This document shows positions 20,999 through 23,258 of a stretch of 41,381 nt of DNA, one piece after another. A program made the position numbers and the translations under genes. How positions within the stretch are numbered: position 1 is the first letter of the stretch; each line of letters opens with the position of its first letter. Under the pieces are notes generated by a model that did no database searches, had not been told where the DNA came from, and saw only the letters and a program-made list of their open reading frames with translations. Source of the DNA: a virus (lineage: Duplodnaviria; Caudoviricetes); IMG/VR virus record IMGVR_UViG_3300049982_000339, positions 1-41,381 of that record; one strand, written 5' to 3'.

Positions 20999-21039
20999 GC
21001 CCCAAAAAAGGGGGCAGCGCAATGTTTAATAAAGGACAG
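20999..21039 (-). promoter_or_regulatory. Late promoter copy 4
   Basis: CTGTCCTTTATTAA...CTTTTTTG-GGGC-ATG; motif overlaps the stop of the upstream gene. Confidence 0.8.
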
Positions 21040-21439
21040 ACGTAGCCCTAAGTTCGGATCCTGTTAAAGAGAAGTAAAGGTTTTGCAGTTGGTGAACATA
21101 TTGTATATGCTTAAGGGCGGTGGTAAAGCCTTCTGATTTAGTTTGATATCTCACAAAGCCTTCAGATGAATATATAGCCAGCTCCCGATTTCCATGAATT
21201 GTCAACCTATATGAATCTTCCGCTGGAGTAAAACCTAACGGCAAAAGATTGAAGCGAAGAAGGGGAACTGGTACTATACCGTCAAATGGGATGTAACCGC
21301 TTGCGCCCATGTCCTGCCATTCATTCACACCGGTAAAAAGGTTAATTGATGTTATTGCAATAACGTCTCCAATGTTATTATATCCTCCAGATTTAGTCGC
21401 TTTCACAAGGTTGCCAAGTCGTATTTCATTTGCCTGCAT
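21026..21439 (-). CDS. Phage hypothetical protein (YopX-like)
   Basis: NEIRLGNLV start and IQYVHQLQNLYFSLTGSEL end; TATATTTG 4 nt before the ATG. Confidence 0.7.
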   Translation of the reverse strand: MQANEIRLGNLVKATKSGGYNNIGDVIAITSINLFTGVNEWQDMGASGYIPFDGIVPVPLLRFNLLPLGFTPAEDSYRLTIHGNRELAIYSSEGFVRYQTKSEGFTTALKHIQYVHQLQNLYFSLTGSELRATSVLY

Positions 21440-21472
21440 AAGTCAAATATAATTATTTCCTATCTTTACATC

Positions 21473-21573
21473 GCGAACGTTAATCAATACACCCAAATCG
21501 GGCTTTGTTACCCTTAATAGAGACAAGCCCGGGCATGGGTGTTTTTTTACACCCTGTATTGGTTGACGTTCGC
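21473..21573 (+). ncRNA. Candidate antisense/regulatory RNA with CI/C4-like architecture
   Basis: 19-bp closing stem fully paired with two U-G on the plus strand, enclosing two hairpins. Confidence 0.6.
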
Positions 21574-21613
21574 AAAACTTAACAAATATAGTCCCGGGCT
21601 TTATTCTCAAATC

Positions 21614-22714
21614 TCAATTGAAAACTTCTTTCCAATCGTTATAAATTCGATCGGCAATATTTGCAATCATCACCGGCGGCACACTCATGCCCAATACATA
21701 TTGGATATCACTTGCTTTTTTACTTAAAAAGTCATAATCTAAAGGAAAGGTCTGAGATAAAATCATTTCTTCAATATTCATTCGACGCGGTTCAGAAAAT
21801 AAGGTGAGCTTAGATCCCTCAGTACTGGATATTGTTGAAACCACTTTATGATCATAAATATAGGCTGAATTGAAATTACTATGCCGTCCTTCAATGCGTC
21901 TGAGTGTGTCAGAATAATCGCTGTCTCCTCGTTGCCGATATTTCCATATATATTCGTCATGTTCGCTCCAGCTTGCATTGTTGATATTATCATTCTTAAT
22001 ATTCTTAAAAGGAATTGCGGGGCAGTTGAATTTTAAGTTAAGTGCAGGAAATTCGCTAAAAAGCAGACCGGATTCTGCCGGTAGAATGGTTTTTAAGTCT
22101 TTACGAATAGCAATAAAAAAAACACGTTCACGCCTTTGTGGTACACCCATATCAACGGCTTTTAACATATATTCCTTTACTACATATCCCGCCTTGTCGA
22201 ATTCAGCTATAATCTTTTTTGCGTAATGAATAGCATTGCCATATAAGATGCCATTAACGTTTTCAGCAATTACGATTTTTGGACGGAGTTTTTCGGCGAG
22301 GCTAATAAAATCAAAAAAAAGGGTATCTAATACCTGCTCGGCTTGTCCCTCTCTAAACGTTTTTAGCTTACCCCAATCTTTTTCCCTGTTACCTGACAAG
22401 CTAAAAGAGCTACATGGAGGTGATCCGTCAAGTATATCAAGATTATAAAGTTCATCAGGATATTCGTCCCATTTAACGAAGTCTTGTATTGCTTCAATAA
22501 ATTGAAATTTAGGATTGTGATTTTTAATATAAATCCTTGCCATTTTAGGATCTATTTCATTAAAACCGATTACATCGAAGCCGGCCAGTTTGTAGCCCAT
22601 TGTAGAGCCGCCGCCGCAGGCAAAGCAAGAAAATACTTTACCTCTATCTTTGGCGAAAAGAGTGTTTTTAAAGTTCCATCGGTAATCAAATTCAGGGGTG
22701 CTTTGTGTTGTCAT
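21614..22714 (-). CDS. Orphan DNA (cytosine-5)-methyltransferase
   Basis: Motif I FACGGG, IV GSPPCSSFS, VI ENV, VIII PQRRERVF, X GMSVPP; no cognate nuclease nearby. Confidence 0.93.
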   Translation of the reverse strand: MTTQSTPEFDYRWNFKNTLFAKDRGKVFSCFACGGGSTMGYKLAGFDVIGFNEIDPKMARIYIKNHNPKFQFIEAIQDFVKWDEYPDELYNLDILDGSPPCSSFSLSGNREKDWGKLKTFREGQAEQVLDTLFFDFISLAEKLRPKIVIAENVNGILYGNAIHYAKKIIAEFDKAGYVVKEYMLKAVDMGVPQRRERVFFIAIRKDLKTILPAESGLLFSEFPALNLKFNCPAIPFKNIKNDNINNASWSEHDEYIWKYRQRGDSDYSDTLRRIEGRHSNFNSAYIYDHKVVSTISSTEGSKLTLFSEPRRMNIEEMILSQTFPLDYDFLSKKASDIQYVLGMSVPPVMIANIADRIYNDWKEVFN

Positions 22715-22768
22715 TTTTAAATTATTAAGGGTTTACGTTGGCTTTGTTACCCGAAATAATTTGAGATT

Positions 22769-22800
22769 AAAAAACCCCCGAGCCTCGCGCCAAGGGGTTT
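22769..22800 (-). terminator. Intrinsic terminator
   Basis: AAACCCCTTG...CTCGGGGGTTTTTT on the minus strand. Confidence 0.55.
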
Positions 22801-23224: not shown

Positions 23225-23258
23225 AAAAGAGCCTGTCTAATAAAAGACAGGCTCTTTT
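23225..23258. terminator. Intrinsic terminator with 14-bp perfect stem
   Basis: AAAAGAGCCTGTCT-AATAAA-AGACAGGCTCTTTT. Confidence 0.8.

What the first reader, a model, noticed from the sequence alone, without database searches (positions are those of the whole stretch)
21440..21613. 101-nt counter-strand RNA with CI/C4-like cloverleaf and an alternative terminator fold
Seen: GCGAACGTTAATCAATACA (21473-21491) pairs fully with TGTATTGGTTGACGTTCGC (21555-21573) using two U-G pairs, which works only on the plus strand. Inside are hairpins CGGGCTT(T)GT/ACAAGCCCG and GGGTGT/ACACCC. Alternatively ACACCCA/TGGGTGT followed by a T run forms a terminator. A -7-like TATCTTTA lies 4 nt upstream, while minus-strand TATATTTG boxes at 21583-21590 and 21444-21451 point the other way. 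Known: P4 CI and P1 C4 RNAs are double-hairpin antisense regulators of this general shape. Inference: an antisense/attenuator switch governing the 137-aa gene or read-through into the terminase operon.
Basis: partly seen in the sequence, partly recalled or inferred. Interest (0 to 1): 0.7.

Follow-up and report, generated by a model that had tools for sequence, protein, structure and literature searches.

The report
Orphan C4-like RNA in Bacteroidetes prophage
A prophage, likely of a Bacteroidetes host, carries a predicted small RNA gene built like the C4/CI immunity RNAs of phages P1 and P4, but it points against its neighbours and lacks the short gene such RNAs normally silence, so it likely dampens the opposite-strand message that runs toward the DNA-packaging genes.

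Summary
The repeats, hairpins, T-run and promoter boxes are all present and far beyond chance (z -7). A -7 box puts +1 on the first base of the 101-nt stem. The 101-nt cloverleaf is this RNA masked by its own leader. The same anatomy, with unrelated sequence, occurs 8 times in 400 kb of related phage records, and 0 times in shuffles or in 661 kb of unrelated phage. One copy (Flavobacterium phage 23T) is a true Rfam c4-2 hit; the window's copy hits no Rfam model. Three relatives repeat the 5' arm over the next start codon, as c4 targets do. The window has no such target and no downstream gene, so it is an orphan. It most likely acts as a cis-antisense brake on minus-strand read-through (0.4). 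Immunity against other phages (0.25) and a relic (0.15) remain open. No transcript and no covariation data exist. This is a new variant of a known kind, of modest interest.

The parts
21461..21468 (+). Bacteroidetes -7 promoter box variant (TATCTTTA); predicts +1 at G21473
   Evidence: Sequence; box at -12..-5 per PMC9723704; the same 3-4 nt register in 8 of 8 family members
21473..21524 (+). 52-nt leader (a1/b1- or seqA-like), complementary to three parts of the downstream RNA
   Evidence: Folds; leaders of 44-56 nt in 7 of 8 members
21473..21573 (+).
   Evidence: -48.3 kcal/mol, z -6.96; favoured over the second fold by about 11 kcal/mol in the full precursor
21489..21548 (+). Predicted intrinsic terminator (7-bp stem on a 9-bp hairpin, T7); gives a 76-nt short RNA with a free 16-nt 5' tail
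   Evidence: About -25 kcal/mol; mean unpaired probability of the tail 0.92
21525..21601 (+). 77-nt C4/CI-like RNA: 9-10 bp closing stem, hairpin 21537-21554 (U6 loop), hairpin 21555-21590 (loop CGCAA)
   Evidence: -32.1 kcal/mol, z -4.8, reverse complement -27.5; the equivalent fold in phage 23T is Rfam c4-2
21583..21611 (-). Consensus-type promoter P1 (TTTG, 17 nt, TATATTTG); predicted +1 at G21578; its transcript would be antisense to the plus RNA
   Evidence: consensus from PMC7366714
21444..21451 (-). -7 box P2; predicted +1 on the A of the 137-aa gene's ATG (leaderless)
21026..21439 (-). 137-aa phage protein of unknown function (phrog_10066)
21614..22714 (-). C5-cytosine DNA methyltransferase, convergent on the RNA's 3' end; another gene end stands here in run X2
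21040..22770 (.). Approximate extent of the inserted module between a terminator (22775-22796) and the late-gene motif at 21030-21039; empty in two relatives
22740..22758 (.). 17 of 19 repeat of 21501-21519, just upstream of the methylase start; possible trans site for the leader, or chance
   Evidence: E 0.076

Best explanation
The element is likely a promoter-bearing C4/CI-type antisense RNA gene on the plus strand that lacks its usual downstream target gene and likely acts as a cis-antisense brake on minus-strand transcripts running from the methylase and promoter P1 into the 137-aa gene and the terminase genes. Shown in the sequence: the boxes, the complementary segments, three alternative folds and the absence of a downstream ORF. 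Predicted steps: (1) Host sigma starts at G21473. (2) Most transcripts stop at the T7 terminator as a 76-nt RNA. (3) Read-through transcripts fold into the 101-nt masked form. (4) Removal or occupation of the leader lets the 77-nt two-hairpin RNA form; in P1 and P4, RNase P removes the leader. (5) Its CGC loop can seed on the leader's 5' end, and pairing over 19 nt strips the three terminator pairs next to the U-run, which would feed back positively. (6) Short and mature RNAs are perfect complements of the counter-transcript and would trigger duplex decay or transcriptional interference. About 0.8 that it is a C4/CI-type cassette; about 0.4 that the counter-transcript is its working target.
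For: Anatomy test with fixed rules: 8 hits among 1410 boxes in 358,290 bases of kin records, all at spacer 3-4, against 3 hits over the 13 other spacers; 0 among 3357 boxes in 660,865 bases of unrelated phage; 3 of 20,000 random starts. 8 real hits against 0 in each of 10 shuffles of 400,225 bases. Four of the 8 were found after the rule was set (laban6-1, 23T, two in G002). The 23T copy is Rfam c4-2 at 49.4 bits (cut-off 41), and the hit covers the second fold. In 3 of 8 members a 7-14 nt copy of the 5' arm overlaps the next ATG. Sizes match: leader 52 nt against 53-nt c4-a1b1 entries in the supplement of PMC2864571. Blocking 19 5' nt drops the U-proximal terminator pair from P 0.85 to 0. The plus 5' arm binds the minus-strand site at -27.6, against -18.8 for the minus leader's own arm. 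No minus-strand terminator is predicted between 21490 and 20800. Run X2, from another study, is identical over 151 of 151 nt, while other listed pieces differ by 2.6-20%.
Against: No Rfam model hits the window, and only 1 of the 8 members scores. The window lacks the c4-2 inner 4-bp helix and GNRA loop. The plus box ends in A, not the consensus G. The second fold is 11 kcal/mol less stable in the precursor. A counter-strand -7 box inside the second fold occurs in 1 of 8 members only, so P1 may be incidental. P2 could express the 137-aa gene without passing the element. Two further kin records gave 0 hits among 273 boxes. The pattern was first drawn from the window and three loci. No covariation could be measured.
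Confidence: 0.4

Rival explanations
1. The same C4-like RNA works in trans as an immunity factor against other phages or elements whose leader and start codon carry the matching sequence (heteroimmunity).
For: Family anatomy. The 5' arm segment differs in every member, and in 3 of 8 it is repeated over a start codon. P4 CI acts by pairing with seqA and seqC (PMC4825925). 3 of 8 copies lack an ORF.
Against: No element with the matching target was identified. Inside the record, the best off-site duplex (-21.0) is no better than shuffled queries (-20.1 to -22.4).
Confidence: 0.25
2. It is a relic: a C4-type cassette whose ORF was lost when a methylase gene was inserted head-on, now serving at most as a terminator.
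For: No ORF follows. The promoter box is non-consensus. The site is an insertion hot spot.
Against: All helices of both folds are intact. 151 of 151 nt are identical in X2 despite a different convergent gene. Orphans recur in two unrelated sequences (L139, G002).
Confidence: 0.15
3. The first reader's 101-nt cloverleaf, or a structured minus-strand leader from P1, is itself the mature active RNA.
For: It is the most stable fold, with two G-U pairs on plus. P1 is a consensus promoter 5 nt before the arm.
Against: The inner terminator forms first. In 23T the Rfam-matching part is the second fold. The counter-promoter is not shared by the family.
Confidence: 0.08
4. It is an invertible terminator: a host invertase flips the 63-bp interior between the 19-bp repeats, placing the terminator downstream of P1, as in the C. 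difficile cwpV switch.
For: The promoter lies outside the repeats and a one-way terminator inside. An in-silico flip gives a -25 kcal/mol hairpin plus U7 on the sense strand. cwpV precedent (PMC2784873). The arms match the Mpi consensus at 8 of 10 positions (PMC8375218).
Against: 36 of 82,744 positions in the window match as well. There is no resolvase in the record. The seven relatives have unrelated arm sequences. The segment is short. The model does not explain the second fold or the +1 register.
Confidence: 0.07

Closest known systems
c4-2 RNA (Rfam RF02944, clan CL00128; Weinberg et al. 2017, PMC5737381, 'likely a distant homolog' of a known RNA)
   Same: About 79 nt, a long closing stem and two inner hairpins; the same anatomical slot is a true c4-2 in Flavobacterium phage 23T; CAUGG after the closing stem against UAUGG in the consensus
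   Different: The window does not score; no inner 4-bp helix, U6 instead of a GNRA loop, no CCUAA
P1/P7 c4 antisense RNA with the c4-a1b1 leader (RF01695; PMC2864571 supplement; RNase P substrate per PMC5499578)
   Same: A leader of about 52 nt complementary to the RNA on the same transcript; relatives have a second site at the next start codon
   Different: No second site, no icd/ant-like genes, no Rfam match; Bacteroidetes-type promoter; the a2/b2-icd-ant details are from my own knowledge
P4 CI/seqA and Salmonella Gifsy-1 IsrK/STnc1160 (PMC4825925)
   Same: A short terminated RNA plus a read-through transcript that yields a complementary processed RNA
   Different: No downstream ORF45/antirepressor; no sequence match
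Shigella RnaG/icsA (PMC2879508, abstract)
   Same: Convergent promoters and a cis-antisense RNA acting on a leader
   Different: RnaG induces a terminator on the target; no strong minus-strand terminator is predicted here

Membership tests
c4-2 (RF02944) | Covariance-model score of 41 bits or more | tested here: not met
   No match at E <= 10; 23T relative 49.4 bits
c4-2 (RF02944) | About 79 nt, closing stem plus two hairpins | tested here: met
   77 nt, z -4.8
c4-2 (RF02944) | Inner 4-bp helix, GNRA loop, UAUGG/CCUAA motifs | tested here: not met
   By-eye comparison of the fold with the consensus printed; only CAUGG resembles it
P1 C4 / P4 CI antisense systems | Upstream complementary sites on the same transcript (a1/b1, seqA) | tested here: met
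   The leader pairs with the RNA
P1 C4 / P4 CI antisense systems | Downstream target at the start of a controlled ORF (a2/b2, seqC) | tested here: not met
   None in the next 120 nt and none above shuffle level in the record; present in 3 of 7 relatives
P1 C4 / P4 CI antisense systems | Rfam C4 or related model match | tested here: not met
P1 C4 / P4 CI antisense systems | Processing from a precursor (RNase P) and repression in trans | not testable with these tools
   No RNA holder listed
Mpi-type or cwpV-type DNA inversion switch | Recombinase-site consensus in the arms | tested here: inconclusive
   8 of 10, as at 36 sites in the window
Mpi-type or cwpV-type DNA inversion switch | Both orientations seen, invertase available | tested here: inconclusive
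   One orientation in contigs of 2 runs, which drop rare variants; no resolvase in the record, host genome not held

The most novel reading that the evidence does not exclude
Temperate Bacteroidetes (Dune-like) phages carry a largely uncatalogued, re-addressable C4-type RNA family. Orphan copies such as this one are swapped into the head-gene hot spot as stand-alone, self-amplifying RNA immunity genes aimed at the leaders of competing phages.
Probability: 0.2. Interest if true: 0.7.

Novelty: new variant of a known kind. Interest (0 to 1): 0.42.

Why it matters
It extends C4/CI-type RNA control to Sphingobacteriaceae-like and Flavobacterium temperate phages, where Rfam catches 1 of 8 copies. 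It also gives a simple anatomical rule (box, 3-4 nt, first fold, second fold) for finding more. Members in cultured phages (23T, laban6-1) make processing, targeting and the role of orphans directly testable. If orphans confer cross-phage immunity, they are protein-free defence genes.

Tried and rejected
Sequence homologues: none found. Viral scans gave 0, 23, 16 and 8 stretches; all 47 were inspected and judged unrelated. The metagenome pattern gave 0. The genome scan gave 13 single-arm matches in unrelated phyla, about the chance number. Phage and plasmid BLAST gave chance hits only. 0 of 49 virus records matched. Upstream regions of 53 loci of the 137-aa family show no comparable fold, so the element is not tied to that gene. 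No RNA holder listed. Runs X3 and X4 gave nothing. Covariance model: MAFFT alignments were poor and the model had no base pairs, so it was not searched. The structure of the 137-aa protein was low confidence (pLDDT 54) with only uncharacterised phage matches; no NCBIfam or PADLOC hit. MITE: no target duplication, single copy. attC-like cassette site: no bulged bases, and the X2 breakpoint is at the stop codon, not in the arm. Type I toxin: the small ORFs of 18 and 15 aa are not hydrophobic. Retron or DGR: no reverse transcriptase. Host genomes could not be searched. Papers: passages of PMC7366714, PMC9723704, PMC8375218, PMC3090145, PMC2784873, PMC5903667, PMC10939037, PMC4825925, PMC5499578, PMC2864571 (plus supplement passages) and PMC5737381 (its supplement, holding the c4-2 text, could not be read and may already list Bacteroidetes members); abstract of PMC2879508. 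Searches listed no paper on this element.

Full report
Setting. The window is a provirus record, 94% complete. Its terminase has its best named relatives in Mucilaginibacter (61%) and Pedobacter (50%) and more distant ones in Duneviridae, so the host is likely Sphingobacteriaceae. The main genes run on the minus strand; the integrase is on plus. The finding lies between a C5 methyltransferase (21614-22714) and a 137-aa protein of unknown function (21026-21439). Two relatives with 66% terminase identity have a terminator followed directly by the motif that precedes the 240-aa gene, so methylase, element and 137-aa gene are an insert of about 1.7 kb. Other relatives carry other inserts there.

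Observation. Everything described is present. The 101-nt fold scores -48.3 kcal/mol, z -6.96, on plus and -42.1, z -5.70, on minus. It is the strongest of 4128 plus-strand windows. G-U pairs occur on both strands, two of them in the outer stem on plus, so they favour plus only moderately. Rfam gives no relevant match.

Promoters. In Flavobacterium the TAnnTTTG box spans -12 to -5 (PMC9723704). That puts +1 of the plus box on G21473, the first base of the stem. It puts +1 of P1 on G21578 (with a -33 TTTG at 17 nt) and +1 of P2 on the A of the 137-aa start codon. On plus, prefix folding shows the terminator complete at about 76 nt, before the 3' arm exists; the short RNA has a free 16-nt tail.

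Close relatives. Only run X2, from another study, holds the element. It is identical over 21467-21617 and then runs into other letters exactly at the methylase stop. Read by eye, those letters end an ORF in a way I recall from Dam-like phage methylases; I could not confirm this. Identity gives no covariation. Run X1 may be the source of the window.

The turn. Looking for long repeats at the same site in related phages showed elements with unrelated sequence and the same layout: a -7 box, 4 nt, a long stem, and an inner segment complementary to a stretch just past the stem. A first loose scan found box plus stem no more often than at random starts (74 against 66 of 7844), but 12 against 5 with the inner complement. 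With stricter rules, set after seeing those hits, there were 8 elements among 1410 boxes in 358,290 bases of kin records, all at spacer 3 or 4, with 3 hits over the 13 other spacers. There were 0 among 3357 boxes in 660,865 bases of unrelated phage and 3 in 20,000 random starts. Ten shuffles of 400,225 bases gave 0 each against 8 real; two newly fetched kin records gave 0 among 273 boxes. The window, L139, L146 and MZ447863 defined the rule; laban6-1, 23T and two copies in G002 were found with it.

What the family is. In 23T the region from the inner segment to its downstream complement is Rfam c4-2, 49.4 bits against a cut-off of 41. No other member scores. The same region folds in all 8 members: 65-87 nt, z -2.8 to -5.9, after a leader of 44-56 nt (22 nt in one). 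In the window it is 21525-21601, 77 nt, -32.1 kcal/mol, z -4.8. In 23T, laban6-1 and one G002 copy, 7, 14 and 11 nt of the 5' arm recur over the next ATG, ahead of ORFs of 14, 15 and 90 aa. In L146 and MZ447863 a 90-91 aa ORF starts 3 nt after the second fold. The window, L139 and the other G002 copy have no ATG within 60 nt. This is the layout of c4 with its a1/b1 leader (53-nt entries in the PMC2864571 supplement) and of P4 CI or IsrK/STnc1160 (PMC4825925). C4 and CI are RNase P substrates (PMC5499578).

How it likely works. Shown: complementarities and computed folds. In the precursor the masked fold wins by about 11 kcal/mol (-52.7 against -41.8), so the 77-nt form needs its leader cut off or occupied. 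The mature fold exposes CGCAA, whose CGC is complementary to the 5' end of the leader. Blocking 19 5' nt removes the three terminator pairs next to the U-run, which suggests positive feedback. Inferred: transcription, termination, processing and any target. No second target exists in the record above shuffle level. The only strong partner is the counter-transcript: the plus arm binds it at -27.6 against -18.8 for that transcript's own arm, and no minus-strand terminator is predicted between 21490 and 20800, on the way to the packaging genes. All three orphans point head-on at the 3' end of a gene. I therefore put the cis brake first (0.4), immunity against other phages second (0.25) and a relic third (0.15). 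Against the brake: a counter-strand box inside the second fold is seen in 1 of 8 members, and P2 could bypass the element.

The DNA-switch idea. I first favoured an invertible terminator like cwpV, because a flip would place a -25 kcal/mol terminator behind P1 and the arms match the Mpi consensus at 8 of 10 positions. But 36 positions in the window match as well, there is no resolvase, and the family's arms are unrelated in sequence. It drops to 0.07.

Verdict. It works like a C4/CI cassette (about 0.8) but fails membership of c4-2 and C4 on model score and on the downstream target. It is a new variant of a known kind. Earlier notes of this scan describe similar orphans elsewhere; they are leads, not support. 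The unread c4-2 supplement may already list Bacteroidetes members. Interest 0.42.

Noticed in passing
window 5165, 11875, 17527, 21030, 23241, 27235, 27729: The motif TAAA(G/A)GACAG (CTGTCCTTTA on minus) precedes late genes 7 times; the core is also present upstream of the matching genes in L097, L098, L139, L140 and L146. Likely a phage late promoter.
   Followed up: partly
window 21501-21519 and 22740-22758: A 17 of 19 direct repeat flanks the methylase; the leader would be complementary to the methylase 5' region. E 0.076.
   Followed up: partly
window 21607-21617, run X2: A different gene end, possibly a Dam-like methylase (motif recalled), replaces the Dcm-like gene exactly at the stop codon.
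   Followed up: partly
whole window: GGNCC is under-represented (50 seen, 82.7 expected), unlike the other 16 words tested; a possible restriction or methylase target.
   Followed up: no
window 21443-21610 minus: A 55-codon TTG ORF across the element is in frame with the 137-aa gene, separated by one TGA; probably chance.
   Followed up: no
window 23225-23258: A 14-bp palindrome carries the late motif on both arms, upstream of a 115-aa gene that is absent from L097 and L098.
   Followed up: no
L164 (MZ447863): The record is named a Microcystis phage but has this family's gene order and Bacteroidetes-type promoter boxes; the host label may be wrong.
   Followed up: no
L057:3086-3189, L059:4094-4197: A long inverted repeat downstream of a 137-aa-family gene, overlapping the next gene start; attC-like in look.
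   Followed up: no
L097:746-1013; L162:6380-6451: Long inverted repeats in non-coding stretches of related phages, the first with tandem CTCCAAC units.
   Followed up: no
L146:6620-6895, L164:23491-23763: ORFs of 91 and 90 aa directly behind C4-like RNAs at the same hot spot look alike at their C-termini; no PHROG match.
   Followed up: partly
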